Below, in pieces: positions 896 through 15,900 of a stretch of DNA of 19,786 bases. Every line of letters starts with the position of its first letter. Position 1 is the first letter of the stretch. This DNA is from a virus. Lineage: Duplodnaviria > Heunggongvirae > Uroviricota > Caudoviricetes. A model generated the notes under the pieces. It was not told the origin of the DNA, ran no database searches, and saw only the letters and a list, made by a program, of their open reading frames with translations. The stretch is from IMG/VR virus record IMGVR_UViG_2721755712_000006. One strand, 5' to 3'. Made by a program: the position numbers and the translations under genes.

Positions 896-1183
896 TTACT
901 GTCTCTGGCAATCTTTATCGCGATAACGCCTGAAATACCCTCTCGCTTCCTCATCCATACCAAGAGCCGAATGAGTCCGCTTAACTGCCTGTCTTAAATC
1001 TCCGAATCTGTCTGTAGTTGCTGGTGGGCGTGCCGCCTTACGGATACATTCAGAGCGTCTGTTTGCTGCATGTTCACGTTCTTTATCGCCATCTGCCAGC
1101 ATCATGACTTCTGCCCATCGTGCGGCAGCTCTCCGGTATAGCCCTTTTGACTCCAGTTCTTCAGCTTTCCTGTCCCTTATCAT
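896..1183 (-). CDS. Small PerC-family-like regulator (phage/island-associated)
   Basis: 95-aa ORF; N-terminal IRDRKAEELESKGLYRRAAARWAEVM resembles PerC/Pch-type small regulators as I recall them; basic C-terminus. Not verified by search. Confidence 0.4.
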   Translation of the reverse strand: MIRDRKAEELESKGLYRRAAARWAEVMMLADGDKEREHAANRRSECIRKAARPPATTDRFGDLRQAVKRTHSALGMDEEARGYFRRYRDKDCQRQ

Positions 1184-1219
1184 TTCTGCCTCTCAGATTA
1201 TATAGATAAGCAAAAAGGT

Positions 1220-1340
1220 GTTGGTTCAGTTGGTTCAGTTGGTTCAATTTGTAAAGATCGTTGTTTTTATTGTGTTTTTTCTGAAATATTGAACCAACAT
1301 CAACTCATTTTGAACCAACACAGCCCAGCTCTGAACCAAC
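1220..1340. repeat. Iteron cluster A (crr/ori-like): 3 tandem GTTGGTTCA plus 3 inverted TGAACCAAC at 21-bp spacing
   Basis: GTTGGTTCA at 1220..1228, 1229..1237, 1238..1246; TGAACCAAC at 1290..1298, 1311..1319, 1332..1340. Confidence 0.7.
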
Positions 1341-1394
1341 AACACAGCGATAGCTTTGTGATTGGTCCGTTATTTTCTGGCTGATATTTGAGCG

Positions 1395-1425
1395 TATAAC
1401 AGTGTTATACAGTGGTATACTGTAT
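1395..1425 (+). promoter_or_regulatory. Operator-like repeats upstream of the 1443 ORF
   Basis: Tandem TATAACAGTG / TTATACAGTG followed by inverted repeat ATACAG-N7-CTGTAT, just upstream of the start codon. Confidence 0.3.
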
Positions 1426-1442
1426 GGATATTACTCACTGAT

Positions 1443-1883
1443 ATGGTCTTTGCAATGAGCAAATCTAATCTGGTCGCGTTCCGCATCCCATCTGAATTGC
1501 AGGATGAGTTTAATCGGTCTGTTCTCGCTTCTGGAGGGGATAAAACCTCCTGGCTTGTTGATGCGATTCGCATGAAGCTGGGACAGCCGGAAAAGTCTAT
1601 TGATTCACGAATGCTTGGGCTGGTGGAGCGCATGGAAAAAGCCGCTGCGTCGCTTATTGCCGGAAAGCCGAACATCCCACCAAAGCCATATAACGAAACG
1701 GCAGTTATAAAGATCATTGCCGATACCATCCGACAGGGATTTGATAATGGGCGTGTGATAGCGGAACGGCTCAATGAAGCAGGCTACCAAACAAAAGCTG
1801 GTAAAGCGTGGGATAAAGACATTTACAGCGCGTGGAAGCGTCAGGGTAACAATATTAAAAGAATCAATACGCTGCTTCAGTAA
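1443..1883 (+). CDS. Hypothetical DNA-binding protein with N-terminal ribbon-helix-helix-like segment
   Basis: 146-aa ORF (alternative ATG at 1455). N-terminus NLVAFRIPSELQDEFNRSV...WLVDAIRMKL has an RHH (CopG/Arc-like) pattern; C-terminal LNEAGYQTKAGKAWDKDIYSAWKR resembles a recombinase-type DNA-binding helix. No clear SD. Confidence 0.5.
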   Translation: MVFAMSKSNLVAFRIPSELQDEFNRSVLASGGDKTSWLVDAIRMKLGQPEKSIDSRMLGLVERMEKAAASLIAGKPNIPPKPYNETAVIKIIADTIRQGFDNGRVIAERLNEAGYQTKAGKAWDKDIYSAWKRQGNNIKRINTLLQ

Positions 1884-1912
1884 TTGATCAGTGTATAAAT
1901 GATATTTATCGC

Positions 1913-2890
1913 TCAATCGCTCCCTTTCCGCCCTTCAGCTACAGGGTCGTTGTCGGCGATAACAAAACCTAAGTCCTGAGAGAATCTCTCTCGTGGGAAT
2001 CCTTTAGCAGGTAAACCCATTGAATCATATCCACATCCGGGAACATTTGGTTTAGAGTCAATAAGGTCTGCAATTTGCCGAAGCCATGTTGATCCCGGAC
2101 CAAGTCGTTTAACTAAGTACCAGATAATACAGATCGCGCTAAAAATCCTCTCGCAACTCTCTGGATGGAGATTAAGTCCGTCAAAGTATTCATTATCCGG
2201 TACTGGAACTCGGGGATGCTTTCTATTCCATATTCTGGAATGGTGAGCGCAACGATTCCTTATGAGATTAAGGCACTTCAACCATTTTGCAAATGTCTGC
2301 TTATTATCAATGCCAAAACGACGTATAATTTTCCCCTGCATATGACCATTAAGCATCGCATAATATTTAGACATCTGACCAAAATCCCAGGTCTCCACCG
2401 CCACCCAAAATGGAATCTCCTTGCCTTGGCTTCGATGCCATTCAATACAGTCATCTCTGCTTTCGTCTAATTTTACTTTTTGCTTATACACCCAATGCTC
2501 GAAGGCAGATGAGAATTTTGGATTAATGTATTTTGATGACATGTAGGCAAGTGGATCATTGCGACCAACCTCATGCGCGATGACTGAACGAACATGAATC
2601 TCTATTCTTTCGATAGCATCAATCATCAAAAGACGCAGTTTTTTGTCAAAAAGATATAGATCGTACGTCTTCTCGAAACTGGTACCAGCAAGAAATCGGT
2701 CTGTTCTGTACGAAAGACCTTTATCTGTTGTCGCAATAATTCTTGATGGGTACCAAAAACCTGACAATCGATAATATCCAACCTGCGACAGCTTACGTAT
2801 CGCACGATTTCGATCATTGATAATCATGCCACGTTCAAGTAGCAATCCTAGCAATTCGTGATAGTCCTTATGAGGCTTTGCGGCAATCAT
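1913..2890 (-). CDS. Abi_2 family abortive infection protein (AbiD/AbiF-like)
   Basis: Contains the hallmark NRCAHHSRIWN motif plus YYRLSGFWYP near the N-terminus. ORF track starts at a GTG at 2935; ATG at 2890 (MIAAKPHKDYHELL...) fits family N-termini better. Neither start has a good SD. Confidence 0.7.
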   Translation of the reverse strand: MIAAKPHKDYHELLGLLLERGMIINDRNRAIRKLSQVGYYRLSGFWYPSRIIATTDKGLSYRTDRFLAGTSFEKTYDLYLFDKKLRLLMIDAIERIEIHVRSVIAHEVGRNDPLAYMSSKYINPKFSSAFEHWVYKQKVKLDESRDDCIEWHRSQGKEIPFWVAVETWDFGQMSKYYAMLNGHMQGKIIRRFGIDNKQTFAKWLKCLNLIRNRCAHHSRIWNRKHPRVPVPDNEYFDGLNLHPESCERIFSAICIIWYLVKRLGPGSTWLRQIADLIDSKPNVPGCGYDSMGLPAKGFPRERFSQDLGFVIADNDPVAEGRKGSD

Positions 2891-2986
2891 AGTGGCGAAA
2901 CAAAAGATAATAAAAGGCCCGACCGTGAAACTCACATGCCTGAAATCGGCGGCGGAGAAACAGAGGATCGGGCTCGGTTGCCTGTA

Positions 2987-3366: not shown

Positions 3367-3421
3367 GGTGATGCTGCCAACTTACTGATTTAGTGTATGA
3401 TGGTGTTTTTGAGGTGCTCCA

Positions 3422-3697
3422 GTGGCTTCTGTTTCTATCAGCTGTCCCTCCTGTTCAGCTACTGACGGGGTGGTGCGTAACGGCAAAAGCACCGCCGGAC
3501 ATCAGCGCTATCTCTGCTCTCACTGCCGTAAAACATGGCAACTGCAGTTCACTTACACCGCTTCTCAACCCGGTACGCACCAGAAAATCATTGATATGGC
3601 CATGAATGGCGTTGGATGCCGGGCAACTGCCCGCATTATGGGCGTTGGCCTCAACACGGTTTTACGTCACTTAAAAAACTCAGGCCGCAGTCGGTAA
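3422..3697 (+). CDS. insA: IS1 InsA
   Basis: 91-aa product [43 protein letters not shown]... matches IS1 InsA. Confidence 0.9.
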
Positions 3698-4119
3698 CCT
3701 CGCGCATACAACCGGGCAGTGATGTGATTGTCTGCGCGGAAATGGACGAACAGTGGGGCTACGTCGGTGCTAAATCACGTCAGCGCTGGCTGTTTTACGC
3801 GTATGACAGGATACGGAGGACAGTTGTGGCGCACGTTTTCGGTGAACGCACTCTGGCCACACTGGCGCGTCTTCTGAGCCTGCTGTCGGCCTTTGAGGTC
3901 GTGGTATGGATGACGGATGGCTGGCCGCTGTATGAATCACGCCTGAAGGGAAAGCTGCACGTTATCAGCAAGCGTTACACTCAGCGCATTGAGCGACATA
4001 ATCTGAATCTGAGACAACATCTGGCAAGGCTGGGACGGAAGTCACTGTCGTTCTCAAAATCGGTGGAGCTGCATGACAAGGTCATCGGGCATTATCTGAA
4101 CATAAAACACTATCAGTAA
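3616..4119 (+). CDS. insB: IS1 InsB (transposase InsAB' by -1 frameshift)
   Basis: 167-aa product [27 protein letters not shown]... matches IS1 InsB with several substitutions relative to the canonical sequence as I remember it. Confidence 0.85.
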
Positions 4120-4134
4120 GTTGGAGTCACTACC

Positions 4135-4142: not shown

Positions 4143-4535
4143 CATCAGATACATGTGATTGGTGTACCCGCATAAAACATCGTCATAGCGCGTCCTGTGC
4201 GCATATACGCCGATAATCAACACATCACCACCACTCTGTCTCGTGTAGAGAACAGTTTCATGGTATCCCCCGCCATCGTGTGCGTACTGGTCGGACGTAG
4301 TTGCAAAATTTTTGCAACTGATACCCCTCGCGCGCGTACTGGTCACGAAATTGGTGTTTTGCTGTGGCAGTGATATCAGAAAAATCTTCCTGTTTCACAT
4401 AAAGCGGATATGCGCGTACTGTAACGGCCCCATCAACGGGGATCGGATTTGAAATCCCGACCCAAGCTATGTACCAAATGCCATGTCTTGGATATATGAT
4501 GATTGCCATTCTAAACAACGCTAAAGGGGGTTGGT

Positions 4536-5150
4536 GTGAGCAGAAAAGATACTAAAGAATTGCTAACTATCTGCATGGTGTACTTTTCAATTTATTTTTG
4601 TGCATACATGGTAGTCCCAGATGAGTTTGAACATGGCAGTATTATTTATTCCATAACATTCTATTTTTTAGAGCTAACACCAATTTTGGCTATCCTTTTG
4701 GCAATACATATTTATTTTTCCTTAAAAAAAGAATCGACTAATTGGGAGAAGGTATGGAGAGACAGAGGATTTCTAACATCACCTAAAGATGATGCATATG
4801 AGAGTGATTTTTCTGACTTTATAACAAACTACTACTCCAGCGAACAATTCAAAAATAGACTGTCTGATGTTTGGGAAACAGCAATGTATTCCATAGGGAT
4901 TATATTATTGATACTTACTGGTATCGCTCAATATGTTTTTAACATTGACTTATCATTAAATCCTGAAAATTTAATATCGCCATTGATTTTTGGTGAGATA
5001 TTGATCTTCTCATTCGGAATTTTCTTGAGTGTTGTTCTCTGCTCATTATGCAAACTACTGACTAACAGGTATCCAGGTGAAGCAAGGAGAGCAAGAAAGG
5101 CAAATCCATATTATCTTTTATTTCCTAATGGAGACAGCAGAGATATCTAA
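4536..5150 (+). CDS. AT-rich integral membrane protein (about 4 predicted TM helices), unknown function
   Basis: GTG start preceded by AAAGGGGG SD. Hydrophobic stretches near residues 10-25, 40-60, 115-135, 147-170 (by eye). Roughly 30% GC against ~50% neighbours. Convergent with the 701-aa gene; stops 18 bp apart. Confidence 0.6.
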   Translation: MSRKDTKELLTICMVYFSIYFCAYMVVPDEFEHGSIIYSITFYFLELTPILAILLAIHIYFSLKKESTNWEKVWRDRGFLTSPKDDAYESDFSDFITNYYSSEQFKNRLSDVWETAMYSIGIILLILTGIAQYVFNIDLSLNPENLISPLIFGEILIFSFGIFLSVVLCSLCKLLTNRYPGEARRARKANPYYLLFPNGDSRDI

Positions 5151-5168
5151 GCCATCCATGGCTACCAG

Positions 5169-7274
5169 TTATTGAGCTTCTTTTTGTGATGCCTGTGCGA
5201 CTCTGGTGAGCGATTGTGTGACCGTACTGATCGCTCTGTCATATGCTGTGCTACCTTTTGGCGTATTTGCCAGACGTAACAAGGCATTTCGTATAACAGG
5301 GCTTTCGTATGCCTTCGCTGCTCCGCCTACGGCACCAGCAGCAGGAACAACAAACGCAGCCGTTTTTAGCATCCCCGCTAATACTGCTGCGTTTATGATG
5401 CCACCACCAACTAACAATCCATAAAGCTGCTGACCATTTAAGTTTTGAACGTTCGCTTTTGCCGCGTGTCTTGTATCGTTGAGGTATTTAATAACGCCGT
5501 CCAGTTCCTTTCCATGTACGCCTTTAAAGAAAGTTGCTGATTGCTTCCTGTTCCGGTGTAACGCATTAATAAACTTCTCAACACTGATATTTCCAGACGG
5601 ATCAGTCGCCTTATCTACAGCATTCTGAACTATGGCTGCTCGTGCGTTTTGCCTACCATTGTCATCCAGAAGCCTGTAAAGCTGAGAACGTTCTGATGGG
5701 CTTTGGCTAAAAACGAGTTTTGTTACATCCTCAGGCGTGGCCTTGCCGCTGGCTATTGCCTTTTGAACGCGCGTTCTTCCCATCATGTCATTGAATTTAG
5801 ACCATGAGCGATCAACCCTTGCCATATTAATGGCTTCGTCTGCTCCAAGATTTTTGGCTACGGCTTTTTTCATATCCGCCGTATATGCCTTGTAGATAAT
5901 ATCGCTGGCTTTCTGGAGCGTATCTTTATCAACAGTGTCAGATGACGCCATAAATCGCTTTCGAAGATCGGTTCTGTTTTCCCTCGCCAGACGCAGGTCA
6001 TTTGGTCCGCTGGTGATATCGTCTTTAAATTGCTGCAAGACTTTTACCGCGGCTCTATCCTGAGATTTGCCCGGGCGGCTTAACACGGCAATCTGATTGT
6101 CGATAGCTTTTACCGTGTTTGAGAGATCGACAGGGGTATCCCCCATAGCGTCAATTATGCGGTTATATCGCTTTCCTGCTGCCTCAATGAATTTTTGTTG
6201 CCCTTTAGTCGCAGATTCATAAAGCTGTTTATCAGAAATGCCACCCAGACCATCGCTAAATGTTCTGACTAAATTTTCTCGTGCTTGTTGTTGATTCAGC
6301 CGATTCTTACCGGTTCCAAAAAAAGGAACTCTTTCGCCTAATGTCTGAGCCTGACTCTGCATAAAGGTTTTATCTTTCAGCATGTCACTGGTCATTAACG
6401 GCAGATTTCTTTCCGATGCAAAGTCGACAGCAGCCTTTGCTTCAGGCGACATATCACCACGAACAGCCCTCGAAACCGCACTCGCTGTATTTTCCAGCCC
6501 CTTACCAATACCACCAATGCCAGCAGAAATTACCGTTTGTAACGGATCAATATCTTCTCCACCAGCAAGGCTGGTGGCTCCCTGTAGTGCTAAATCTGTA
6601 GCTGCTGATTTTCCTATGGCACTAAGCACCGTTCCAGCCCTGCCCGCTGGTGTAAACGCCAACGCATTAGCAAGAAACGAGGTCAGGTCTTGCGGTGATA
6701 AACCCGGCTTGTTCAGGGCATAATCACCTGATGGCAGAGAAACGATAGTATTCCCCTTCTCATCCTGCCTTAATGTCGCCCCCATTCCCTGAAGAATCTT
6801 TTCCTGAGACGCGTCAGAGCCGAAAAGTTGAGACCATCCAGCCTTTAGGGCATCCATGCTTAGTGAGTTCAATTCTGGGGCAGAGGCGACATTTTGCAGT
6901 CTCTCCATCTCTGGAGTCATTCGGCTTTCGCCTGTTATAGCATCGCGCATCGCAGCCCCAAGACTGGCTCCCTGTTCTGCTGAACGCTCAAGCCCCTCTC
7001 TTTGCTGAGTAGCTAACTTTGCATACCCTGACGCAAGAGAATTATCAGATGATGTATGTTGAATATTTTGAGTTGCTGATTGGGATCGGTCTATTTCATT
7101 CGTTGATGGTAGTGGATAGGCAGCATAAAAAGCCTGCTTAGCCTGCTCTACACTTTCTCCGGCTTGCGGGGCCACGACTTCATTGAAGTATTGCTCCTGA
7201 GCCTGCGCTTTTTGTTCTGGTGCTAACGCCTGATACTGTGGAGAGGCGATAACATCTTTCCATGCTTTAGCCAT
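5169..7274 (-). CDS. Large hypothetical protein (701 aa), Ala/Gln/Gly/Ser-rich helical, C-terminal Gly/Ala-rich hydrophobic segment
   Basis: Long ORF; ATG overlaps the stop of the upstream gene (TAATG); GGGGTG SD. Hydrophobic segment LYGLLVGGGIINAAVLAGMLKTAAFVVPAAGAVGGAAKAY near residues 617-656. No family recognised. Confidence 0.7.
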   Translation of the reverse strand: MAKAWKDVIASPQYQALAPEQKAQAQEQYFNEVVAPQAGESVEQAKQAFYAAYPLPSTNEIDRSQSATQNIQHTSSDNSLASGYAKLATQQREGLERSAEQGASLGAAMRDAITGESRMTPEMERLQNVASAPELNSLSMDALKAGWSQLFGSDASQEKILQGMGATLRQDEKGNTIVSLPSGDYALNKPGLSPQDLTSFLANALAFTPAGRAGTVLSAIGKSAATDLALQGATSLAGGEDIDPLQTVISAGIGGIGKGLENTASAVSRAVRGDMSPEAKAAVDFASERNLPLMTSDMLKDKTFMQSQAQTLGERVPFFGTGKNRLNQQQARENLVRTFSDGLGGISDKQLYESATKGQQKFIEAAGKRYNRIIDAMGDTPVDLSNTVKAIDNQIAVLSRPGKSQDRAAVKVLQQFKDDITSGPNDLRLARENRTDLRKRFMASSDTVDKDTLQKASDIIYKAYTADMKKAVAKNLGADEAINMARVDRSWSKFNDMMGRTRVQKAIASGKATPEDVTKLVFSQSPSERSQLYRLLDDNGRQNARAAIVQNAVDKATDPSGNISVEKFINALHRNRKQSATFFKGVHGKELDGVIKYLNDTRHAAKANVQNLNGQQLYGLLVGGGIINAAVLAGMLKTAAFVVPAAGAVGGAAKAYESPVIRNALLRLANTPKGSTAYDRAISTVTQSLTRVAQASQKEAQ

Positions 7275-8740
7275 TAATCACCCCATAGTGAAGAAAAGTT
7301 ACTGCTGGCTGCTGGCTGTGATACCTGCTCAGATTGCGGCAATGTCTGCGACGAAGAAGCAGTTCCTCTGTCAACTGCTGAAATAACCCGCAAAGCATCA
7401 TAAGTTCGACCAGAAGCAGCTTTCAGCGAATTGAACTGGTTTTCCATCTTCCGGCGCTTGGTATCAATGGTTTTTGTGGAATCACCAGGCTGAGGGAAAT
7501 ACATTTGATAATATTTGGACATTTCAGCTGGTAGGATAGATGCCCCTGTTTCCTGACGGAGTATTGCCATTATTGCGTCATTAGCATTAACAACGTATTG
7601 CTGCTCTGCTGGGCTGAGCGTTAAGTTAGCCAGCGTCCCATTACCCAAAGCATTATTAATGATCGCCACTCGCTGTGGGCTAAGCTGGTCTTTCAGTGTA
7701 TCTATTGAATCAAGAGCATCCCTAACCCTGTATGCAAATCCAGCAGCTTTTTTAGCCCCTTCTGGCGACTTTTCCATGATCTTTTGGGCTGTTGGCAAAG
7801 CTATTGGACGAAACCCATCTCCAGATATTGGCTGGTTTAGTTTTCCCTGCTCTTCACTTCCGTCTGTGTAGTATTTTGTGACAGTGCCATCATCGTTTTC
7901 TCTAACACTCATTAATTTTTTGGCGTTTGTATTAATTCCAGCCGCTGCCGCAAATGCCGCCGCCCCCTCTGGATCCGCCTTTAACATTTGAGCGTACTGA
8001 TTGTAATTCTGCATTGCTGCTGTTGGTGCATATGCTGACGTTAACGCATTTGCTCGGCTAATATCCTGCCCTCTCGCCTGAAGTGCTTCGCCAGCCTGAT
8101 TGCTGCGGATTGTCTCTGCCAACTTGCCACGCTCAATATCCCGACCTTCCATTTGATCTTTGATATCGAAATACTTCTCATGACCGAGAGAAAACAGCGC
8201 CAGATTACCTGCGAAATGCTGGAAGCCCTGCGGGTCATTAACCTGCATTTCAGCAATAGTTTCTGGAGGGATACCTAAACGACGCATCTCCTGCTCATTA
8301 TCCATCATGAACCTGCCAAATGCGCCCTGACCAAGCGATGAGGCTACCTGTGCTTTGAGCGCCAGATTGCCATAATCATCCCTTTGAGCATCATCGACAT
8401 AACTCATCCCTTTACGGACTTCCTCAAACTCTTCTGGGAATGCTGTAATAAGATTACGCATCTGCTCCCTGTCACCGGACGCATAAGCATCTGCATAAGC
8501 TTTCTGGAATGCCGCTTTACGCTCCTGCTGTTGCTGCTGCTTATAAATATCAGCAACGCCAGCCAGACCACGAAGACCTGTCAGAGCAACGTTATTTGCA
8601 CCTGAGCGAGCCAGTTCATTGTTTTCGCGGATCAGACCAAGCGTTGCGTTAATGTCGCTTGCCTTTGGCGCATTCTCATTTTGCGTACCGATGCCAGCCA
8701 GAAAACCACCAGAATTAATACCCTGTTGCCACGTAGCCAT
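7274..8740 (-). CDS. Large hypothetical protein (~488 aa from ATG at 8740; 492 aa from GTG at 8752), low-complexity Ala/Gln-rich
   Basis: Long ORF translationally coupled to the 701-aa gene; poly-Gln run and Ala-rich tracts; no catalytic motif recognised. Confidence 0.7.
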   Translation of the reverse strand: MATWQQGINSGGFLAGIGTQNENAPKASDINATLGLIRENNELARSGANNVALTGLRGLAGVADIYKQQQQQERKAAFQKAYADAYASGDREQMRNLITAFPEEFEEVRKGMSYVDDAQRDDYGNLALKAQVASSLGQGAFGRFMMDNEQEMRRLGIPPETIAEMQVNDPQGFQHFAGNLALFSLGHEKYFDIKDQMEGRDIERGKLAETIRSNQAGEALQARGQDISRANALTSAYAPTAAMQNYNQYAQMLKADPEGAAAFAAAAGINTNAKKLMSVRENDDGTVTKYYTDGSEEQGKLNQPISGDGFRPIALPTAQKIMEKSPEGAKKAAGFAYRVRDALDSIDTLKDQLSPQRVAIINNALGNGTLANLTLSPAEQQYVVNANDAIMAILRQETGASILPAEMSKYYQMYFPQPGDSTKTIDTKRRKMENQFNSLKAASGRTYDALRVISAVDRGTASSSQTLPQSEQVSQPAASSNFSSLWGD

Positions 8741-8758
8741 TGATTTACCCACGTCCAG

Positions 8759-8917
8759 TTAAAGTGTAAGCCAGCGCCTTATCCATTAATCCCCGAGCAA
8801 TTTCGTGGATCGTTGGCGCAACTCCTACCTCTGATTTTTTACGCTGCTCCTCCTGAATTTTCTTTATCGCTTCCATTTGCTTCTCACTTATCAATACTGG
8901 CTTTACTGAAATAGCCA
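8759..8917 (-). CDS. Small protein (52 aa), possibly ribbon-helix-helix DNA-binding; first gene of the cargo operon
   Basis: Not in the ORF track (under 60 aa). ATG at 8917 with strong SD AAGGGGG; product MAISVKPVLISEKQMEAIKKIQEEQRKKSEVGVAPTIHEIARGLMDKALAYT; stop 6 nt before the next gene's GTG. Confidence 0.45.
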
Positions 8918-9011
8918 TAACGCCCCCTTAGAACTGTATAAAACAACAGTCATTATAGTTTCATAAAACGCAACATTCATCATTGTGATTGCAAAATATG
9001 AAACAAATAGC

Positions 9012-9044
9012 ACAAAAAAATGCCACCGTTCAGTAGCTGGTGGC
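9012..9044 (-). terminator. Intrinsic terminator for the 152-aa gene
   Basis: On the minus strand: GCCACC-11 nt loop-GGTGGC (rc of 9022..9044) followed by a T7 run (rc of 9014..9020). Confidence 0.5.
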
Positions 9045-9098
9045 ATCGTTCTGTATGTCAGGTTTTGACAGTTTTTTTATGGACTCTAAAAACTATAT

Positions 9099-9557
9099 TT
9101 ATGGAGTCGCATTACTCTTCATGGCGTGAGCTTTCCTGTTCTCTCTTTGTTCCTGGTTCCATGGATAAGTGTAATTGCCACCAGCAAAGACCATATTGAT
9201 TTTGTGAGGAACCATTAAAGCGATATCAGCACTCATGTCACTGAATGAAACACAGTGCAGACGTTCAAGCCATTTGTATGCTGCTGCCGCTTCTCCCCAC
9301 AAATTAATCCCTGCAAGTTCAACAATATCTCTGATGGAGCAGATATCAACCATCCCGTTAACGCCTGTAAAACGGCGTTTAAAGTCGCCAAGATACTTTC
9401 TGAAAAGAGTTGCTTTCATTGGTTCAGAAAGGTCTATGTATGGGAACACAACCACATCAAGCAGCATCTCCCTTCTGTTGTTCATCGGTATTACAGATGG
9501 CAAATCGGATACTTTGCCAAATACATGATGAAAAGCCTTTGCGATTATCTTCATCAT
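9099..9557 (-). CDS. Hypothetical protein (~152 aa), orphan cargo gene next to the iteron array
   Basis: ORF MMKIIAKAFHHVFGKVSDLP...; GGGAGA SD upstream of tandem ATGs; own terminator downstream. No family recognised. Confidence 0.5.
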   Translation of the reverse strand: MMKIIAKAFHHVFGKVSDLPSVIPMNNRREMLLDVVVFPYIDLSEPMKATLFRKYLGDFKRRFTGVNGMVDICSIRDIVELAGINLWGEAAAAYKWLERLHCVSFSDMSADIALMVPHKINMVFAGGNYTYPWNQEQRENRKAHAMKSNATP

Positions 9558-9643
9558 CAATCTCCCACTGAAACCAGTGATGTGGTGTTCAGATTTCGTA
9601 AAACACTCTCTAATGCCAGCCAGATGTTGTGCTCATCAATTCA

Positions 9644-9754
9644 GTCACGTTGTGTTGGTTCAAAATGCCGTGTTGTTGGTTCAGTGTTGGTTCAATAAAA
9701 AGAATAAAATCCTTATAAAACAATACTCTTTACAAATTGAACCAACTGAACCAA
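9644..9754. repeat. Iteron cluster B (putative replication origin downstream of the primase gene)
   Basis: GTTGGTTCA at 9644..9652, 9665..9673, 9676..9684; three tandem TGAACCAAC at 9728..9754. Segment 9717..9761 is the exact reverse complement of 1213..1257. Confidence 0.7.
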
Positions 9755-9789
9755 CTGAACCAACACCTTTTCTACGCACATGAAGAAGC

Positions 9790-12546
9790 TCATTCTTCAG
9801 ATGAGTTGTAATCTCCTGGCTGGTAATTGAGTACATAAACGTTTATTTGTCGTCCCTGAATACGTGGTGATTTTCTTTGGTATCCACGACCGCTGTTTGG
9901 TGGGGTTAGCATCCCGGCTTTTTTCAACACTTCAGCAAACTGTTTTGCGTTGAAACCACATGCGATCTCCTTTTCAAATGTGGCCGGGAATGTGTAGAAA
10001 ATCATTGGGCTTTCGTCATGTTCTCCACGCTGACGGTATCCGGCTAAATCTTTGATGGGCAAATCTGCCGGGCTGTATGGAAATGGTGCAAAACGGCTAA
10101 GCCCATAGGCATTAAGAAATGCCTCCGTTTGTTCAATAATCTGCTGATGCTCTTTGTTACCTGTGCCGAACTCGCGCAACCATGCGTTATAGCTGTGCTG
10201 TATCGCATCACGGCATGTCTGAGCATCCCAGCCTGTTACAACCTCGCCTAACAACAATGCGGCCTCCAGAATGGCAAATCGCGCGGCTACACGGTGAACC
10301 TGCTCACCATAATCGGATGGGATCAGGCTTCTCCATCTGCTTTCGCAGTCACGAACAGTTTTAATAGCCTGTTGCTGGTGGTCTGCCAGCCATTTAATCC
10401 ACTCACGCCCGGACGCGCCGTGGTGATGCTGGTAAGCGTCTTTCAGTGCGTCTGCGTGCTGTTTTCCGTTCTGGTAATCGTGAAAGCGTACTGCTTTACT
10501 CAACGGAATATTCAGCAGTCGCACCATTTGCCCGGCTTTGGTTTTTCGCCCGGAAGTAGCGATAAATGTTTCTAAATCCATTTCTCCGGTGCTGATTGCC
10601 ACTGTACGCCAGCGTTTTAGATCCCGGTTTCCACCATCTTTAGCGCCTTGCAGTTTCCCTACACCGTTAAATAACGCATAGGCAGACTGTGAAACACTGA
10701 CAGGATCAGCGCCCTGACCAACTTCATCAAGCGGCATTAGTCCGTCATTGTGGGCGGCAGCTTCATTTGCCAGCCCCAGCGCGGTTCCGTACCACGTCAG
10801 CCGCAGTAAATCAGGGTTGCCGTATAAGCTGCTCGCCACGTTTGCCGTGGTGGTCTTACCTGCGCTCGACTGCTCATAGAAATGAATGCCGAACCCGTCA
10901 GCGCCCACCAGCCCAATCAATGGCGCTGCCAGTGCTGCGCCGATCCCGGTCATCATTGAATAGTTACCAAAGGCCAGACGCGCCACGTTATCACGCCAGC
11001 TTTTCGCGCTCCCTGAGACGGTATATCCGGCTGCGGCTGAGCTTCTCCCGCTGAACAGCACAGGATTTTCAGGTGTTCCGATGATTTCCCCATCAGGCAT
11101 GATGTACGCTCCGCATTGCCAGCCAGTGGCATGAGCAACACGCCACAATTCACGAGAGCCACTGCGTTGTAGCCAGTCTGCCAGTATTGCTCTGAGGCTG
11201 CTTTTGGTCGTGACATTTACCCCACCAGCTTTAAGTGTGCGCCATCCTTCACGTTCACCAATATCAGCCAGTGGAATGGCAGCGGTTGTCGGCGTTTCAG
11301 AACCAAACGACAGCCAGCGAAGAATGAGATACTGGTCTTTATCGTCTCTGCCAGTACCGATAACGCTTAACGGAGAACATAACCAGCTTTCGTTATTGAT
11401 GATTTCTCCACTCTGGCTGTCAGCTCTCGGAGATACCCAATAAATACCATCCTCGCGGCTTTCTATTCTTGGTTTCAGTGGGTCGGTATCCATAACCTTA
11501 AAATCGCTTCCCTCAATGGTCTGTGGCTCCTGTTTCACGCCATTACCCTGTGGTTGGTACATTGACTTATTGAACGCTTCTGTGGCGCATTTAATGCCGT
11601 GTTTTTGGTGGTAATCATTCCAGTCTGCTTTGTGATCTGTCGGGGGTAATGCCACCCATCCAGAAACAGATAAAGCTGCCTTTTCTGCTGCTATTCTCCC
11701 CGTGTTTTGTCTTCCTTCGCTGTGGTCGTTATCCGCAGCAATGATGATTTGTGCTGAAGGAAATTTATCCCGCAGTACCTGGGCGACATATAACAGGTTC
11801 CCGGCATCAATCGCCGCCACTGTCAGCGCCTCTGGACGAATTAAATGGGCAGATAATGCCGTTGCCAGCCCTTCTGCGATTAAGATGCTCTGTGTTGTTT
11901 CTGGTGCGTTTATGGCGTGATATGCCCCCCGCTTTGCTGAACCTGTCAGGAGTCTTTTTTCACCATGTGAGGTAATAGTCTGTGCTGCTGTTACTGCGCC
12001 GGATTTATCCACCAGCGCCAGCAACAGAGATCCATCGGGCAACACGGGGAATGTAAAATCACCTACCCCTTTCGCAACCAGATAATCAGATTTGCCGTTT
12101 ACAGCCTTTCTGCGCATGTCATCAAACTGACGGGAAAACGTATCCCGTCTTTGTTGTTCGTCCTTCTCTGCCCTTTTCAGGCGCTCCTGTTCGCGTCGCT
12201 GGCGCTCGGTTTCCAGTTGTTCCCGTTTCTGGCTGGTGGCTTCTGGTGTTTCCGTTGTCCGGTAATCAATACCCAGAACATCAGCGGCAAGAAGCGCCGC
12301 CTCTGTTGTGTCGCAGTTATTTACGCGTTTAATTAAATCCAGCCCATCACCAGCGCCGCACTGATTACAGATGAAGCTACCGCGCCCGTTGTCATCGAAC
12401 CGGAATCGATCTTTGCCCCCACATGCAGGGCAGGGAGCATGACGGCGCGGAGAGTCAGGGACATTTATGTTCAGGCAGCCCAGCACATGAGGCCAGTTGT
12501 TTTCAGACGCACTGATAACCTGACGGATAAGATCAATGTTTCGCAT
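9790..12546 (-). CDS. P4 alpha-like primase-helicase (Zn ribbon, TOPRIM, P-loop NTPase)
   Basis: 918 aa. Cys4 ribbon CPACGG...FICNQCG; TOPRIM-like IIIAADNDH with upstream ILIAEGLATALS; Walker A SSAGKTTT. Confidence 0.9.
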   Translation of the reverse strand: MRNIDLIRQVISASENNWPHVLGCLNINVPDSPRRHAPCPACGGKDRFRFDDNGRGSFICNQCGAGDGLDLIKRVNNCDTTEAALLAADVLGIDYRTTETPEATSQKREQLETERQRREQERLKRAEKDEQQRRDTFSRQFDDMRRKAVNGKSDYLVAKGVGDFTFPVLPDGSLLLALVDKSGAVTAAQTITSHGEKRLLTGSAKRGAYHAINAPETTQSILIAEGLATALSAHLIRPEALTVAAIDAGNLLYVAQVLRDKFPSAQIIIAADNDHSEGRQNTGRIAAEKAALSVSGWVALPPTDHKADWNDYHQKHGIKCATEAFNKSMYQPQGNGVKQEPQTIEGSDFKVMDTDPLKPRIESREDGIYWVSPRADSQSGEIINNESWLCSPLSVIGTGRDDKDQYLILRWLSFGSETPTTAAIPLADIGEREGWRTLKAGGVNVTTKSSLRAILADWLQRSGSRELWRVAHATGWQCGAYIMPDGEIIGTPENPVLFSGRSSAAAGYTVSGSAKSWRDNVARLAFGNYSMMTGIGAALAAPLIGLVGADGFGIHFYEQSSAGKTTTANVASSLYGNPDLLRLTWYGTALGLANEAAAHNDGLMPLDEVGQGADPVSVSQSAYALFNGVGKLQGAKDGGNRDLKRWRTVAISTGEMDLETFIATSGRKTKAGQMVRLLNIPLSKAVRFHDYQNGKQHADALKDAYQHHHGASGREWIKWLADHQQQAIKTVRDCESRWRSLIPSDYGEQVHRVAARFAILEAALLLGEVVTGWDAQTCRDAIQHSYNAWLREFGTGNKEHQQIIEQTEAFLNAYGLSRFAPFPYSPADLPIKDLAGYRQRGEHDESPMIFYTFPATFEKEIACGFNAKQFAEVLKKAGMLTPPNSGRGYQRKSPRIQGRQINVYVLNYQPGDYNSSEE

Positions 12547-12558
12547 TCTGGCCCCCGT

Positions 12559-13161
12559 TTAGTGCGTCACTGGTGCTTCTGGGATGCCGTTTTCGTTTAG
12601 TTCGGCAATAAAGCTGTTGTGAAGATCGGCAAGCACTTCTCGCCCAAACGAAGTGAGTGTTCCCTGTTCGACATCGAACATGTTGCTGTAAAAAATGATG
12701 GCATTCTTTGTTCCGACATCAACACCATATTTCTCGATCATTGCGCCCTCAATGTTGTTTGCCATAGCGAGGCGCTCTGCTACTGGATACAGCGGCATGG
12801 CGACGATGCCATTGGAATAAACAGAAACCACGGAATGATTGCCACTGTCATCAATAATGCTGACGGTGCCGTTTCCCTTTCTCATTTCATTGATGAATGC
12901 TGTTGCTATCAGCCAGCGCCACATAATCACGTGATGCTGTGATGTGTAATCGAAATATCCCTGGTTGCCGCCACTGGCAATAGCGAGATGTATAAACATG
13001 CCTTCATCTGGTTTATCGTCATAATCCCCGGCATCCAGACGATTTACGGCATCAATATATGAGACGGTCTCAACGCGTTCTGTCATGCCATCGTTGCTGC
13101 GGTGCATGATGTTTACGCCGTCAGGCGTTGCTTCTGCATGGAAGGTTAAGAAATTATTCAT
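12559..13161 (-). CDS. Hypothetical protein (~200 aa) immediately upstream of the primase
   Basis: ATG at 13161 (MNNFLTFHAEATPDG...) with GAGG SD, overlapping the stop of the upstream gene by 8 nt; the ORF track's longer 235-aa form begins inside the upstream gene. Confidence 0.55.
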   Translation of the reverse strand: MNNFLTFHAEATPDGVNIMHRSNDGMTERVETVSYIDAVNRLDAGDYDDKPDEGMFIHLAIASGGNQGYFDYTSQHHVIMWRWLIATAFINEMRKGNGTVSIIDDSGNHSVVSVYSNGIVAMPLYPVAERLAMANNIEGAMIEKYGVDVGTKNAIIFYSNMFDVEQGTLTSFGREVLADLHNSFIAELNENGIPEAPVTH

Positions 13162-13375
13162 GTTTCGCCTCGCCTGAATGATTCTGTAACTCATATTTGC
13201 CCAACAATTCGTCTGCTTCCTGAATAGCTTCTGGTACGCCATTGAGCAGTGACATAACCGCGCCAATCATTAACTTGTCTCTGTTGCTGGGGCTGGCCCC
13301 TTCAAGCCAGAACCCTAAAACAGTCTGAACCTGTTCGATGCGACATTGCGCTTCAATGAGCTGGATGTTGGTCAT
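13154..13375 (-). CDS. Small hypothetical protein (73 aa)
   Basis: ORF in an overlapping-stop/start chain (ATGA overlap at 13372..13375). Confidence 0.45.
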   Translation of the reverse strand: MTNIQLIEAQCRIEQVQTVLGFWLEGASPSNRDKLMIGAVMSLLNGVPEAIQEADELLGKYELQNHSGEAKHE

Positions 13376-13635
13376 TTCGCACTCTCCACATCGATTAAAC
13401 TGATATCTATCAGGGAGGTAACTTTTTGTAGCCAGCTATTGATTACTGTCGCCTGTTCCCCTCCCACCGAGGGAATAATCTCATTCATCACATGAACCAG
13501 ACCTGTGCGCGCTCTGGTAAGCCGTTCAGTCGCGCAATCTGCGGGAGTGAATGTGTCTGGATATGGCTCTTCGCGCCCCAGCAATGATTCAATTTCCAGC
13601 TCACACGGATGACGATAAATTAAGTTGATATTCAT
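13372..13635 (-). CDS. Small hypothetical protein (87 aa)
   Basis: ORF in the same coupled chain (ATGA overlap at 13632..13635). Confidence 0.45.
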   Translation of the reverse strand: MNINLIYRHPCELEIESLLGREEPYPDTFTPADCATERLTRARTGLVHVMNEIIPSVGGEQATVINSWLQKVTSLIDISLIDVESAK

Positions 13636-13826
13636 TTTTCACCCCCAAGAATTACCAGCTCGGCACGGGCATCGTTAACCAAAGATGAGCACGCTTTAAT
13701 CGCATCCACGACATCAGCAGCGTCCATTTCTTCAGCCGAAAGACTGACAGCAACCAGGACAGCCGCTGCTTGCTCGATTAATTGAAGTGCGGACGTAAGG
13801 CGAGGGGTATTAATTGAGTTATTCAT
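13632..13826 (-). CDS. Small hypothetical protein (64 aa)
   Basis: ORF in the same coupled chain; overlaps upstream gene by 8 nt. Confidence 0.4.
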   Translation of the reverse strand: MNNSINTPRLTSALQLIEQAAAVLVAVSLSAEEMDAADVVDAIKACSSLVNDARAELVILGGEK

Positions 13827-14037
13827 TGGTTGCCCCCGTTTTTACTGGCATTTCGCCACCTTCCAGCAGGAAATGAACGTCACGAACGGCGAGATCCAAT
13901 ATCGCGAGTAACGCCTTCAGTCTTTCGTCTCGTGAGGGAGAGTTGCTCACCAGAATGTCGTTAATCACTTCTGTCAGTGTGATGATCTGGCTTGTGCGTT
14001 CGAGGGGATCCATATGCACATCGTAGGTTTTAATCAT
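13819..14037 (-). CDS. Small hypothetical protein (72 aa)
   Basis: ATG at 14037 (MIKTYDVHMDPLER...) with GGAGGTGG SD; this is the 3' part of the long 13819..14886 track ORF. Confidence 0.4.
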   Translation of the reverse strand: MIKTYDVHMDPLERTSQIITLTEVINDILVSNSPSRDERLKALLAILDLAVRDVHFLLEGGEMPVKTGATNE

Positions 14038-14224
14038 GTGCCACCTCCATGCGGATACGACCAGCAAAAAAGCAGACGTGATCGCGCACCAGAGAACGGC
14101 GAGCATCGCGTTCAGACTCGGCAGCAATATGATGAATTTTGGCGGTAATTGTCGGGCAATCGCGGCGAACTGCGGCGATAATCCAGATAAATTGCGGTTT
14201 TTGGGTAGGGGTAGTAGCCAGCAT
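14030..14224 (-). CDS. Small hypothetical protein (64 aa), first ORF after the structured leader
   Basis: ATG at 14224 (MLATTPTQKPQF...) preceded by GGAGG, which lies inside a predicted stem. Confidence 0.35.
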   Translation of the reverse strand: MLATTPTQKPQFIWIIAAVRRDCPTITAKIHHIAAESERDARRSLVRDHVCFFAGRIRMEVAHD

Positions 14225-14470: not shown

Positions 14471-14524
14471 AGGACGCCAATCCCGGCACCCGTTTTATGA
14501 GGTGCCTTATAACCATAAACCGTG

Positions 14525-15888: not shown

Positions 15889-15900
15889 TTTCAGTCTCCG

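What the first reader, a model, noticed from the sequence alone, without database searches (positions are those of the whole stretch)
5169..8917. Unassigned three-gene cargo operon: small RHH-like protein plus two large low-complexity helical proteins
Three minus-strand genes (52 aa; ~490 aa; 701 aa) are tightly coupled: 6-nt gap, then a TAATG stop/start overlap. They sit in the variable cargo of a P4-like satellite, where anti-phage and competition systems tend to accumulate. Upstream (minus strand, rc of ~8942..8947) is a perfect TATAAT but no convincing -35. Both large proteins are Ala/Gln/Gly/Ser-rich with no catalytic motif I can recognise; the composition recalls phage ejection/internal-virion or tape-measure-like proteins, yet no structural genes are nearby. 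This is my main candidate for an undescribed system; function is unknown.
Basis: partly seen in the sequence, partly recalled or inferred. Interest (0 to 1): 0.8.

Follow-up and report, generated by a model that had tools for sequence, protein, structure and literature searches.

The report
Phage ejection-protein cassette in a satellite
The three genes are not an unknown system: two of them encode P22-type DNA-ejection proteins (gp20 and gp16 homologues), led by a small conserved gene, and they sit inside a published type of E. coli phage satellite (EcCIMP1-like PICI) that most likely loads them into the capsids it steals.

Summary
The operon is real, with small coordinate corrections. It is not unassigned. 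The 488-aa protein is a P22 gp20 homologue (Pfam Inj_translocase, E 6e-84). The 701-aa protein is a P22 gp16 homologue (PHROG 770, E 1e-162). RefSeq already names both as phage DNA ejection proteins. They keep the P22 gene order 20-16 with the same TAATG overlap, followed by a convergent SieA-like membrane protein.

The host element is a 17.8-kb island at tRNA-Thr (thrW). Its backbone is 96-99% identical to EcCIMP1, a published PICI mobilised by the P22-like phage Kapi1.

The cassette is a replaceable allele. Sister islands carry 14-7-20-16; this one and a Serratia island carry only 20-16. The genes are intact and under purifying selection (dN/dS 0.07-0.16 for gp16).

What appears to be new: the 57-aa leader gene and its conserved promoter precede virion entry proteins in all about 65 related loci examined. 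These are ejection proteins, internal virion proteins, tape-measure proteins or baseplate hubs.

My best reading is that the satellite equips hijacked particles with its own DNA-delivery proteins, possibly to evade SieA-type exclusion. This is inferred, not shown.

The parts
9012..9045 (-). Intrinsic-terminator-like hairpin (GCCACC...GGTGGC) plus T-run that ends the upstream primase-side transcription unit
   Evidence: Sequence read; scan hit at 9037..9022. Equivalent GC hairpin plus T-run is present in homologous loci of other genera (alignment A4).
8988..9003 (-). Distal copy of a conserved 16-bp palindromic element, TTKCRT-N4-TGMAAY (here TTTCATATTTTGCAAT)
   Evidence: Across 56 IMG/VR loci, 39 have two or more such sites at two fixed offsets about 30 bp apart, against a background of 0.0037 per 145 nt.
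8958..8973 (-). Proximal copy of the same element (TTGCGTTTTATGAAAC), directly abutting the -10 hexamer; putative operator or activator site
8952..8957 (-). -10 hexamer TATAAT. The -35 is weak (ATGAAT at 17-nt spacing, 3/6).
   Evidence: The hexamer is conserved across genera in A4. The consensus promoter scan did not pick this site up because a -35 is lacking.
8745..8918 (-). 57-aa leader protein (RBS AAGGGGG at 8929..8923), conserved across Enterobacterales. Predicted as an extended N-terminus followed by two helices. DNA binding is suspected but not shown.
   Evidence: 45 homologues, none with a Pfam domain. Alignment A3. AF2 pLDDT 77, helices 12-28 and 37-53. No fold or profile hit. The last 7 codons and the stop derive from the junction with the phage gene-20 RBS region.
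7274..8740 (-). P22 gp20-family ejection protein (488 aa). The first ~70 aa are P22/N7-type. The C-terminal half is unrelated to P22 and is APSE-like (54% identity).
   Evidence: PF16928 Inj_translocase, E 5.7e-84, 281.6 bits against a cut-off of 29.7. PHROG 917, E 9e-143, full length. BLASTP against P22 and N7 gp20: 55-57% over residues 1-235.. dN/dS about 0.3.
5169..7274 (-). P22 gp16-family ejection protein (701 aa, no SLT domain), with a hydrophobic Gly/Ala-rich segment at 617-635
   Evidence: PHROG 770 'DNA transfer protein', E 1.1e-162, covering residues 19-700. tblastn: phage N7 67.5% over 90% of the protein; P22 gene 16 30.8% over 60%, E 1e-38. Same TAATG 20/16 overlap as P22. dN/dS 0.07-0.16, and four diverged copies are all intact. 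P22 G532 is conserved.
4536..5150 (+). Convergent SieA-like inner-membrane protein (204 aa, 4 predicted TM segments, GC 0.33). It is a neighbour of the operon, not part of it, but occupies the position sieA has in P22.
   Evidence: PHROG 7745 'SieA-like', E 4e-4. BLASTP against P22 SieA: 29% over 108 aa, E 8e-8. Against type-B SieA of prophage HS1: 34% over 118 aa, E 2e-9, including the NRYPGEAR motif. TM prediction. P22 gene order.

Best explanation
The operon is the ejection-protein (E-protein) cassette of an EcCIMP1-type phage-inducible chromosomal island integrated at thrW.

It encodes homologues of P22 gp20, which forms the periplasmic conduit, and P22 gp16, which forms the inner-membrane channel. 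In front of them sits a small island-family protein, transcribed from a regulated promoter that has a good -10, a weak -35 and two conserved palindromic sites.

Proposed mechanism:
1. A P22-like helper phage is induced, and the island excises and replicates. This step is shown experimentally for EcCIMP1, not for this island.
2. The cassette is switched on.
3. The island's gp20 and gp16 are incorporated into the helper's procapsids alongside or instead of the helper's own E-proteins.
4. On the next infection they are ejected and build the trans-envelope conduit through which the packaged DNA enters.

Because gp16 and gp20 are the targets of SieA-type injection blocks, island-specified alleles would let island-carrying particles enter cells that exclude the helper's own E-protein type. 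They might otherwise change entry specificity.

Shown here: homology, synteny, island identity, purifying selection, and family-wide linkage of the leader gene to entry proteins. Inferred: expression timing, incorporation into virions, and the selective benefit.
For: Identity:
- Pfam and PHROG assignments.
- tblastn to P22, N7 and APSE E-protein genes.
- P22 order 20-16-sieA(convergent) with an identical TAATG overlap.
- RefSeq product names.

Host element:
- The backbone at 9596-19179 is 96-99% identical to EcCIMP1 of E. coli MP1.
- The att core is the same, TCCTATTATC, at both ends (PMC11773190).
- Integrase, AlpA, Ash, AntA, a Toprim/DUF927 primase and PerC are present. No capsid, terminase or tail genes were found.
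- EcCIMP1 is excised only when the P22-like helper Kapi1 is present, and is transduced by it.

Functional constraint:
- gp16-like dN/dS is 0.07-0.16 at dS up to 0.25, and four diverged copies are all intact at 701 aa. gp20-like dN/dS is about 0.3.
- The junction specific to this 3-gene layout is present in 219 of 5426 complete genomes.
- The same leader-20-16 layout occurs in Serratia islands.

Module logic:
- Sister islands carry leader-14-7-20-16.
- The cassette is swapped as an allele between conserved flanks.
- In 57 IMG/VR loci and about 9 genome or metagenome contexts, the leader gene is always followed by virion entry proteins: E-proteins, internal virion proteins, tape-measure proteins, lytic tail proteins, Dit or baseplate hub.
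- The promoter architecture is conserved across these loci.

Plausibility of the mechanism:
- Particles still form when P22 lacks gene 7, 16 or 20, so E-proteins are not needed for assembly or packaging.
- E-proteins 21-60% identical to P22's own can substitute in P22.
- SieA-escape mutations map to gp16 and gp20 (PMC10883804).
Against: - There is no direct evidence that the island proteins are expressed on induction or enter virions.
- EcCIMP1 transduction by Kapi1 is very inefficient, about 5e3 particles per ml.
- This variant lacks gp7 and gp14, so it would depend on the helper for them.
- The conserved P22 gp16 G532 is retained, so no SieA-escape signature is visible at that site.
- Type A and type B SieA excluded phages with very different E-proteins. 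This weakens the idea that allele divergence alone gives escape.
- Only 2 of 21 EcCIMP1-bearing strains carry a Kapi1-like prophage.
- Decayed and rearranged copies exist.
Confidence: 0.6

Rival explanations
1. Defence or superinfection exclusion. The island expresses gp20/gp16 homologues in the resident cell, possibly together with the SieA-like protein. They would act as decoys or dominant-negative subunits that disturb conduit assembly of incoming P22-like phages, or that poison the helper's progeny.
For: [quoted passage not shown] A SieA-like gene, or another envelope-protein gene, always sits directly after gp16: a lipoprotein in MP1, a secreted 146-aa protein in L006/L007, and an N-anchored 91-aa protein in Serratia. 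Abi_2 lies nearby.
Against: Kapi1 titres after induction are unchanged by EcCIMP1, and non-lysogens are not protected. gp20 and gp16 have no signal peptides, so cytoplasmic copies would not reach the periplasm where the conduit forms (inference). The exclusion phenotype is explained more simply by the adjacent envelope protein. Related islands carry tape-measure and baseplate-hub genes in the same slot, which fits virion incorporation better than decoy action. No PADLOC hit.
Confidence: 0.18
2. Packaging or capsid-morphogenesis module. As suggested for EcCIMP1_017-019 by Pick et al., the proteins would redirect helper packaging or head assembly toward island DNA.
For: The genes occupy the slot downstream of the primase where other PICIs keep packaging genes. 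PHROG labels such as 'head morphogenesis' attach to gp14-like and part of gp16-like families.
Against: In P22, particles lacking gp7, gp16 or gp20 are still produced and are only defective in injection (PMC10883804). There is no terminase or pac-recognition homology in these proteins. In many related islands a separate TerS-like gene follows the entry module.
Confidence: 0.08
3. Helper-complementation 'insurance'. The island carries spare helper genes so that it can exploit degraded P22-like prophages that have lost E-protein genes, in the same way that EcCIMP1 alpA_1 can substitute for Kapi1 xis.
For: Excisionase cross-complementation is shown for EcCIMP1. Few EcCIMP1 strains carry an intact Kapi1-like prophage.
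Against: Island alleles are very divergent from phage alleles: MP1 gp20 is under 30% identical to any sequenced phage gp20, and the window's gp20 reaches at most 54-58%. This argues for an independent island lineage rather than spare copies. It also does not explain why only entry proteins are carried across the whole family.
Confidence: 0.08
4. Non-functional remnant. A P22-like prophage and the satellite share the thrW att site, recombination left a 20-16-sieA fragment in the island, and the fragment is simply decaying.
For: P22-like prophages (for example HS1) lie in the same chromosomal neighbourhood (P22's use of thrW as attB is from my own knowledge). The small ORF's 3' end is a recombination junction with the phage gene-20 RBS region. 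IS1 sits next door. Truncated derivatives exist.
Against: There is strong purifying selection, and intact reading frames persist across up to 25% synonymous divergence. The cassette has a dedicated conserved promoter and leader gene. The same layout is found in Serratia, and the layout is found in E. coli islands next to a different flanking gene, dinD. It is present in 4% of complete E. coli genomes.
Confidence: 0.05

Closest known systems
EcCIMP1, the PICI of E. coli MP1 with P22-like helper vB_EcoP_Kapi1 (Pick, Stadel & Raivio, ISME J 2025, PMC11773190)
   Same: Same integration site (tRNA-Thr between proA and yagU) and the same att core TCCTATTATC. The backbone (integrase, AlpA, AntA, Ash, primase) is 96-99% identical at nucleotide level. 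The leader protein is 89% identical. The cassette sits in the same slot after the primase. A PerC gene is present.
   Different: The cassette allele is entirely different, with no nucleotide similarity across 4463-8770. MP1 has gp14 and gp7, a 439-aa gp20 that is 24% identical, a 906-aa gp16 with an N-terminal lytic transglycosylase domain, and then a lipoprotein. The window has no gp14 or gp7, a 488-aa gp20, a 701-aa gp16 without SLT, and a convergent SieA-like gene. The paper called these genes hypothetical packaging candidates and never identified them as ejection proteins.
Phage P22 ejection-protein cluster 14-7-20-16 with sieA (Lederbergvirus)
   Same: Family membership of both large proteins. 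Gene order 20 then 16 with a TAATG overlap. A convergent sieA-type gene directly after 16. Ala/Gly/Gln-rich, cysteine-free composition.
   Different: No capsid, portal, terminase, tail or lysis genes are nearby. Genes 14 and 7 are absent. The operon is driven by its own promoter and a non-phage leader gene; the leader has no tblastn hit in 50,697 phage records. The gp20 C-terminal half is unrelated to P22, and gp16 is only 31% identical.
P4-like satellites
   Same: Tyrosine integrase with an Arm-DNA-binding domain at a tRNA gene, an AlpA regulator, an Ash-family protein, and a large Zn-ribbon/Toprim primase.
   Different: No sid, psu or delta was found or annotated. The helicase part is DUF927. 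The demonstrated helper of the family is a P22-like podophage, not P2. By the SatelliteFinder scheme, EcCIMP1 is a 'Type C PICI'.
Capsid-forming PICIs (cf-PICIs; comparison from my own knowledge of Alqurainy et al. 2023, not read here)
   Same: Both are satellites that encode a subset of virion proteins themselves and take the rest from a helper, producing chimeric particles.
   Different: cf-PICIs make their own capsid and packaging proteins and steal tails. This family appears to do the converse: it has no capsid or large terminase genes, and it encodes only the ejected or tail-tip proteins.
SieA superinfection-exclusion proteins, types A to C (Leavitt et al., mBio 2024, PMC10883804)
   Same: The neighbouring 204-aa protein shares the C-terminal RYPGEA motif region and the multi-TM topology. 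Its length fits type B. It sits convergent after gene 16.
   Different: It is only 29-34% identical over about 110 aa and has no tblastn hit in phage records at 1e-3. It resides in a PICI, whereas that paper found every examined sieA inside a P22-like prophage. Its function is untested.

Membership tests
P22 gp20 / Inj_translocase (PF16928) | Sequence match to the curated family model above its gathering score | tested here: met
   281.6 bits against a cut-off of 29.7, E 5.7e-84, covering model positions 1-217 of 218. PHROG 917 matches full length.
P22 gp20 / Inj_translocase (PF16928) | Gene lies immediately upstream of, and is translationally coupled to, a gp16-family gene | tested here: met
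   TAATG overlap at 7274, identical in kind to the P22 20/16 junction.
P22 gp20 / Inj_translocase (PF16928) | Protein is packaged in the virion and ejected on infection | not testable with these tools
   Needs virion proteomics or ejection assays.
P22 gp16 DNA-transfer protein family | Sequence homology to gp16 of P22-like phages along most of its length | tested here: met
   PHROG 770, E 1.1e-162, residues 19-700. tblastn: N7 67.5% over 90% of the protein, ST64T 32% over 100%, P22 30.8% over 60%. P22 G532 is invariant in alignment A5. The Pfam scan returned no significant family for this protein. Whether that Pfam copy holds the PF26808 Phage_P22_gp16 model (named in the precomputed hits) was not checked.
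P22 gp16 DNA-transfer protein family | Membrane-active channel formation for DNA passage | not testable with these tools
   Only a hydrophobic Gly/Ala-rich segment at 617-635 was seen.
Complete P22-type E-protein set (gp7 + gp20 + gp16, with gp14) | All three ejection proteins are encoded together | tested here: not met
   There is no gp7 or gp14 in the window. Both are present in sister islands L004, L005 and L022.
EcCIMP1-like PICI | Integrase, AlpA and primase backbone at tRNA-Thr with flanking TCCTATTATC repeats, size 15-20 kb, no structural or lysis genes | tested here: met
   The element is about 17.8 kb including IS1.
EcCIMP1-like PICI | Helper-dependent excision, replication and transduction | not testable with these tools
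   Shown only for EcCIMP1 itself (PMC11773190).
P4-like satellite | Presence of the sid, psu and delta capsid-size and transactivation genes | tested here: not met
   None appears among the Pfam or PHROG hits of the larger island ORFs, nor in the RefSeq annotation of identical islands. Small ORFs were not all scanned.
Ribbon-helix-helix (Arc/MetJ/CopG) regulators | Detectable sequence or structure similarity to RHH proteins; beta-alpha-alpha fold | tested here: inconclusive
SieA superinfection exclusion (neighbouring gene 4536..5150) | Multi-pass inner-membrane protein with the FxRYPxEAxxFNK motif, encoded after gene 16 | tested here: met
   Four predicted TM segments. The motif reads LLTNRYPGEARRARK, a partial match. 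BLASTP E values are 8e-8 and 2e-9 against type A and type B SieA. PHROG 7745 E 4e-4. The gene is convergent after gp16. Exclusion activity was not tested.
Known anti-phage defence systems (PADLOC-DB) | Match to any defence-system protein model | tested here: not met
   No family matched either large protein. The small protein had only a chance-level Cas11a hit at E 0.017.

The most novel reading that the evidence does not exclude
A widespread family of enterobacterial PICIs (AlpA plus a DUF927/Toprim primase) carries a swappable 'entry module'. A conserved leader gene and a conserved two-operator promoter drive whichever ejected or tail-tip proteins match the local helper type. These are P22 E-proteins, T7-like internal virion proteins, tape-measure protein with its upstream 108-aa partner, a lytic tail protein with Dit and hub, or a baseplate hub alone. 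The satellite would thereby re-equip stolen virions with its own DNA-delivery device. That could let it enter cells that block the helper's own injection proteins, through SieA-type or tape-measure-targeting exclusion, or it could shift host range. This is the mirror image of capsid-forming PICIs.
Probability: 0.3. Interest if true: 0.8.

Novelty: new variant of a known kind. Interest (0 to 1): 0.55.

Why it matters
Satellites are known to steal capsids, resize them, redirect packaging or build their own heads. They are not known to bring their own DNA-injection proteins.

If the island's gp20 and gp16 really enter helper particles, the step at which a satellite could escape helper- or prophage-encoded injection blocks becomes directly testable in a tractable system: E. 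coli, P22-like phages and EcCIMP1.

It would also reinterpret the 'hypothetical packaging candidates' of the published EcCIMP1 paper. It points to the adjacent envelope proteins, such as the SieA-like protein here and the lipoprotein in MP1, as candidates for that island's unexplained superinfection immunity.

For annotation, it shows that a 'phage DNA ejection protein' outside a prophage can mark a PICI rather than a prophage remnant.

Tried and rejected
- **Defence-system reading.** PADLOC and NCBIfam gave no meaningful hit for any of the three proteins.
- **Phage origin of the small gene and the SieA-like gene.** tblastn against 50,697 phage records found nothing.
- **Simple deletion of genes 14-7 from the L004-type cassette.** Rejected. 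The first ~70 aa of the window's gp20 are of a different type (P22/N7), and phage homology begins at the gene-20 RBS, so a recombination with a P22/N7-type cluster is involved.
- **SieA-escape signature.** P22 gp16 G532 is conserved in the island allele. The P546-equivalent region is variable and carries a 12-residue insertion, which is not interpretable. The gp20 C-terminal half cannot be aligned to P22.
- **Tai (tail-assembly inhibition) systems of PICIs.** I read the paper (PMC11364771). It is unrelated to these proteins.
- **Transcriptome paper on MP1 (PMC12922286).** It does not say which EcCIMP1 genes respond to Kapi1.
- **Literature.** Eight full-text searches found no description of satellite-encoded ejection or tape-measure proteins. 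The library does not cover subscription journals.
- **Not attempted.** A pac-site search, co-occurrence of the island with P22-like prophages genome by genome, and structure prediction of gp20 and gp16.

Full report
**1. Observation**

The three minus-strand ORFs exist.
- The small ORF is 8918..8745. It is 57 aa, starts at ATG, and has the RBS AAGGGGG upstream.
- The middle ORF starts at the ATG at 8740, 4 nt after the small ORF's TAA, and runs to 7274 (488 aa).
- The large ORF runs 7274..5169 (701 aa) and overlaps the middle ORF's stop as TAATG.
- A perfect TATAAT lies at 8957..8952 with only a 3/6 match at -35.
- A hairpin plus T-run at about 9045..9012 closes the upstream unit.
- Both large proteins are 37% Ala+Gln+Gly+Ser and have no cysteine.

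**2. What the proteins are**

The 488-aa protein matches Pfam PF16928, 'DNA/protein translocase of phage P22 injectosome' (gp20). The E-value is 5.7e-84, far above the gathering score. It also matches PHROG 917 over its full length.

The 701-aa protein matches PHROG 770, 'DNA transfer protein', at E 1e-162 over residues 19-700. By tblastn it is 67.5% identical to the gene-16 product of Escherichia phage N7. It is 31-33% identical to gene 16 of P22, ST64T and others.

RefSeq already names these proteins 'phage DNA ejection protein', 'injection protein' and 'P22-gp16 family phage DNA ejection protein'. PADLOC and NCBIfam give nothing.

In P22 the order is 14-7-20-16, followed by a convergent sieA. 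Genes 20 and 16 overlap as TAATG.

The window has the same arrangement. The convergent 204-aa gene at 4536..5150 has these SieA-like properties:
- four predicted TM segments;
- a hit to the PHROG 'SieA-like' family;
- 29% identity to P22 SieA;
- 34% identity to the type-B SieA of prophage HS1, including the conserved RYPGEA motif.

'Unassigned' is therefore not tenable.

**3. Where they sit**

The element is bounded by the repeat CGATAATAGGA at 543 and 18349. The second copy lies inside tRNA-Thr(CGT).

Its genes are:
- integrase (18177..16963);
- AlpA (16535..16332);
- AntA/B;
- DUF4222;
- Ash;
- a Zn-ribbon/Toprim/DUF927 primase (12546..9790);
- the operon itself;
- the SieA-like gene;
- IS1;
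- Abi_2;
- PerC.

No capsid, portal, terminase, tail or lysis gene was found.

The region 9596..19179 is 96-99% identical to EcCIMP1 of E. coli MP1. EcCIMP1 is a published PICI at the same site with the same att core. It excises only when the P22-like podophage Kapi1 is present. It needs its own AlpA and integrase, and Kapi1 transduces it at low frequency (PMC11773190).

[quoted passage not shown] The words ejection, gp16, gp20 and SieA do not occur in it.

The element is therefore an EcCIMP1-like PICI rather than a P4-like satellite in the strict sense. No sid, psu or delta was found.

**4. The cassette is a variable, selected module**

Against EcCIMP1, the stretch 4463..8770 has no nucleotide similarity, although both flanks are conserved.
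- EcCIMP1 carries leader-gp14-gp7-gp20-gp16, where gp16 has an N-terminal lytic transglycosylase, followed by a lipoprotein.
- A second E. coli type (L004, L007) carries leader-14-7-20-16(701 aa). In L004 this is followed by the SieA-like gene. In L007 it is followed by a secreted 146-aa protein of phrog_2651, and the window-type L006 also has that protein instead of the SieA-like gene.
- The window type has only leader-20-16.

The window type is not a simple deletion of genes 14 and 7. The first ~70 residues of its gp20 are P22/N7-type, whereas L004 and MP1 share a shorter N-terminal type. Phage-like sequence begins at the gene-20 RBS, so the last seven codons of the leader ORF are junction-derived.

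Evidence that the window type is maintained:
- Its junction is found in 219 of 5426 complete E. coli genomes.
- The same leader-20-16 layout exists in Serratia islands.
- Four copies diverged by up to dS 0.25 all retain intact 701-aa and 473/488-aa frames.
- dN/dS is 0.07-0.16 for gp16 and about 0.3 for gp20.

The island alleles are also far from sequenced phages. The best match for gp20 is APSE, at 54% over residues 90-455. MP1's gp20 is under 30% identical to any phage gp20.

Truncated and rearranged derivatives do exist. The bulk of the evidence nevertheless argues against a decaying remnant.

**5. The leader gene and its promoter: a family-wide pattern**

The 57-aa protein has no Pfam or PHROG family and no phage homologue. 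It is nonetheless strongly conserved in Escherichia, Serratia, Klebsiella, Raoultella, Erwinia and metagenomes.

I examined nine genome or metagenome contexts and 57 IMG/VR loci. I classified the downstream genes by local blastp and PHROGs. In every case the gene or genes directly after the leader encode virion entry proteins.

The 57 IMG/VR loci break down as follows:

| Genes following the leader | Loci |
|---|---|
| P22 20-16 or 14-7-20-16 | 14 |
| Internal-virion-protein sets, including a T7-gp14-like protein (phrog_418) and SLT proteins | about 9 |
| 605-aa injection-transglycosylase-like protein (phrog_7694) | 5 |
| Lytic tape-measure-like protein plus Dit-like protein | 8 |
| Lytic tail protein plus baseplate hub | 9 |
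| Baseplate hub (phrog_196) plus a 238-aa protein | 7 |
| 108-aa protein plus a 1050-1166-aa tape-measure protein (phrog_1107) | 3 |
| Other hub or Dit variants | 2 |

The region upstream of the leader is also conserved across these loci. It has a terminator, then two 16-bp palindromic elements (TTKCRT-N4-TGMAAY) about 30 bp apart, with the proximal one abutting a TATAAT. Of 56 loci, 39 have two or more such sites at fixed offsets, against a background of 0.0037 per 145 nt. In the window the element occurs only at this promoter.

This looks like a dedicated, regulated expression platform for a helper-matched 'entry module'.

Whether the leader protein binds these sites is unknown. Its AF2 model, an extended N-terminus plus two helices at pLDDT 77, is compatible with RHH. 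No sequence, profile or fold comparison supports that label.

**6. Mechanism and rivals**

Established facts bearing on the mechanism:
- P22 carries about 12 gp7, 12 gp16 and 30 gp20 molecules per virion, and they form the trans-periplasmic conduit (PMC8402733 abstract).
- Particles still form without any one of these proteins, but they cannot inject (PMC10883804).
- E-proteins 21-60% identical to P22's own can substitute in P22.
- SieA blocks injection, and escape mutations map to the C-terminal regions of gp16 and gp20.

From this I infer that the island's proteins are made during helper-induced island activation, are incorporated into helper procapsids, and form the conduit for the next injection.

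A plausible benefit is entry into cells whose prophage-encoded SieA-type blocks recognise the helper's E-protein type. Consistent with this, the variant here retains exactly the two SieA-target proteins and drops the conserved gp7.

Weaknesses of this reading:
- SieA types A and B excluded phages with very different E-proteins.
- G532 is conserved in the island's gp16.
- EcCIMP1 transfer is inefficient.
- Nothing is known about expression of the cassette.

Rivals considered:
- **Resident-cell defence by decoy or dominant-negative E-proteins.** This is supported by EcCIMP1's contribution to superinfection immunity. It is weakened because helper titres are unchanged, the proteins lack export signals, and an adjacent envelope protein is a simpler culprit.
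- **Packaging redirection.** This is contradicted by P22 genetics.
- **Helper-complementation 'insurance'.**
- **Non-functional remnant.** This is contradicted by selection and conservation.

**7. Novelty**

The protein families, the island family and the product names are all known. The specific three-gene variant is a new variant of the EcCIMP1 cassette.

Three points appear undescribed in the literature I could search. That library lacks subscription journals.
- The explicit recognition that these PICIs carry P22-type ejection-protein genes: the full set in sister islands, only gp20 and gp16 here.
- A sieA-like gene residing outside a P22-like prophage.
- The family-wide coupling of a conserved leader and promoter to helper-type entry proteins.

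**8. Limits**

All functional statements about this island are inferred from homology, synteny, selection and the published behaviour of a 96-99% identical backbone. I did not determine whether genomes with this island carry a compatible P22-like prophage. I did not determine how the island is packaged. The IMG/VR survey classifies downstream genes by homology only.

Noticed in passing
window 8745..8918 and loci L010-L082: The 53-61-aa leader protein is conserved across Enterobacterales. In every one of about 65 contexts it is the first gene of a cassette of virion entry proteins: P22 E-proteins, internal virion proteins, tape-measure proteins, lytic tail protein with Dit, or baseplate hub. 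The cassette lies directly after a DUF927/Toprim primase.
   Followed up: yes
window 8952..9003; alignment A4; loci L026-L082: The promoter architecture is conserved. Two palindromic 16-bp elements, TTKCRT-N4-TGMAAY, lie about 30 bp apart, and the proximal one abuts a TATAAT with no good -35. It is preceded by a terminator. 39 of 56 loci have two or more sites at fixed offsets. In the window the element occurs only here. The binding factor is unknown.
   Followed up: partly
window 4536..5150 (+): A low-GC (0.33) SieA-like four-TM protein is encoded in a PICI. Leavitt et al. 2024 reported that every sieA they examined lies in a P22-like prophage. It has no tblastn hit in phage records.
   Followed up: partly
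L005:4632-5330 (MP1), L006:5501-5941, L010:13378-13653: Other cassette variants have a different envelope protein directly after gp16: a 232-aa lipoprotein (LLAGC lipobox) in EcCIMP1 itself, a secreted 146-aa phrog_2651 protein, and a 91-aa N-anchored coiled-coil protein. The MP1 lipoprotein is a candidate for the unexplained superinfection immunity reported for EcCIMP1.
   Followed up: no
window 3367..4131: IS1 (InsA 3422..3697, InsB 3616..4119) is inserted in the intergenic region about 400 bp upstream of the SieA-like gene. An ~11-nt overlap of the flanks relative to IS-free islands indicates a target-site duplication. The insertion could affect sieA-like expression.
   Followed up: partly
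window 896..2935: Other island cargo: an Abi_2 abortive-infection protein (2935..1913), a 146-aa unknown (1443..1883), and a PerC-family regulator (1183..896). The EcCIMP1 PerC homologue represses LEE in the published work.
   Followed up: partly
window 9099..9560 (-): A 153-aa ORF (TTG start) lies between the primase and the operon's terminator. It matches no family. It is annotated in the identical island L001 but is absent from L004, L005 and L006, which marks a second small variable spot.
   Followed up: no
L001:14291-16106 and L004:13291-15106: Recent PGAP runs flag the gp16-like gene as a pseudogene 'missing C-terminus'. However, the 701-aa frame is intact, full-length against PHROG 770, and under purifying selection. 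This is a likely annotation artefact.
   Followed up: partly
L007 (NZ_CP072688.1, next to dinD); L008; L009: The same cassette occurs in an island whose left flank is dinD rather than the pao/LysR side of thrW, which suggests another integration site. L008 is a tandem or rearranged pair of islands with a truncated gp20. L009 has a deletion from the primase into gp16.
   Followed up: no
loci L040, L043-L045, L055, L056, L060-L062, L066, L067, L071-L073, L079, L081, L082: In many non-P22-type family members a TerS-like gene (phrog_57/phrog_51 similarity) follows the entry module. This suggests packaging redirection by a satellite small terminase. No such gene was seen in the E. coli P22-type islands.
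   Followed up: no
L001:22204-22467 (= window 13372..13635): An 87-aa island ORF is annotated in RefSeq as 'nicotinic acetylcholine receptor subunit beta'. This is an evident misannotation.
   Followed up: no
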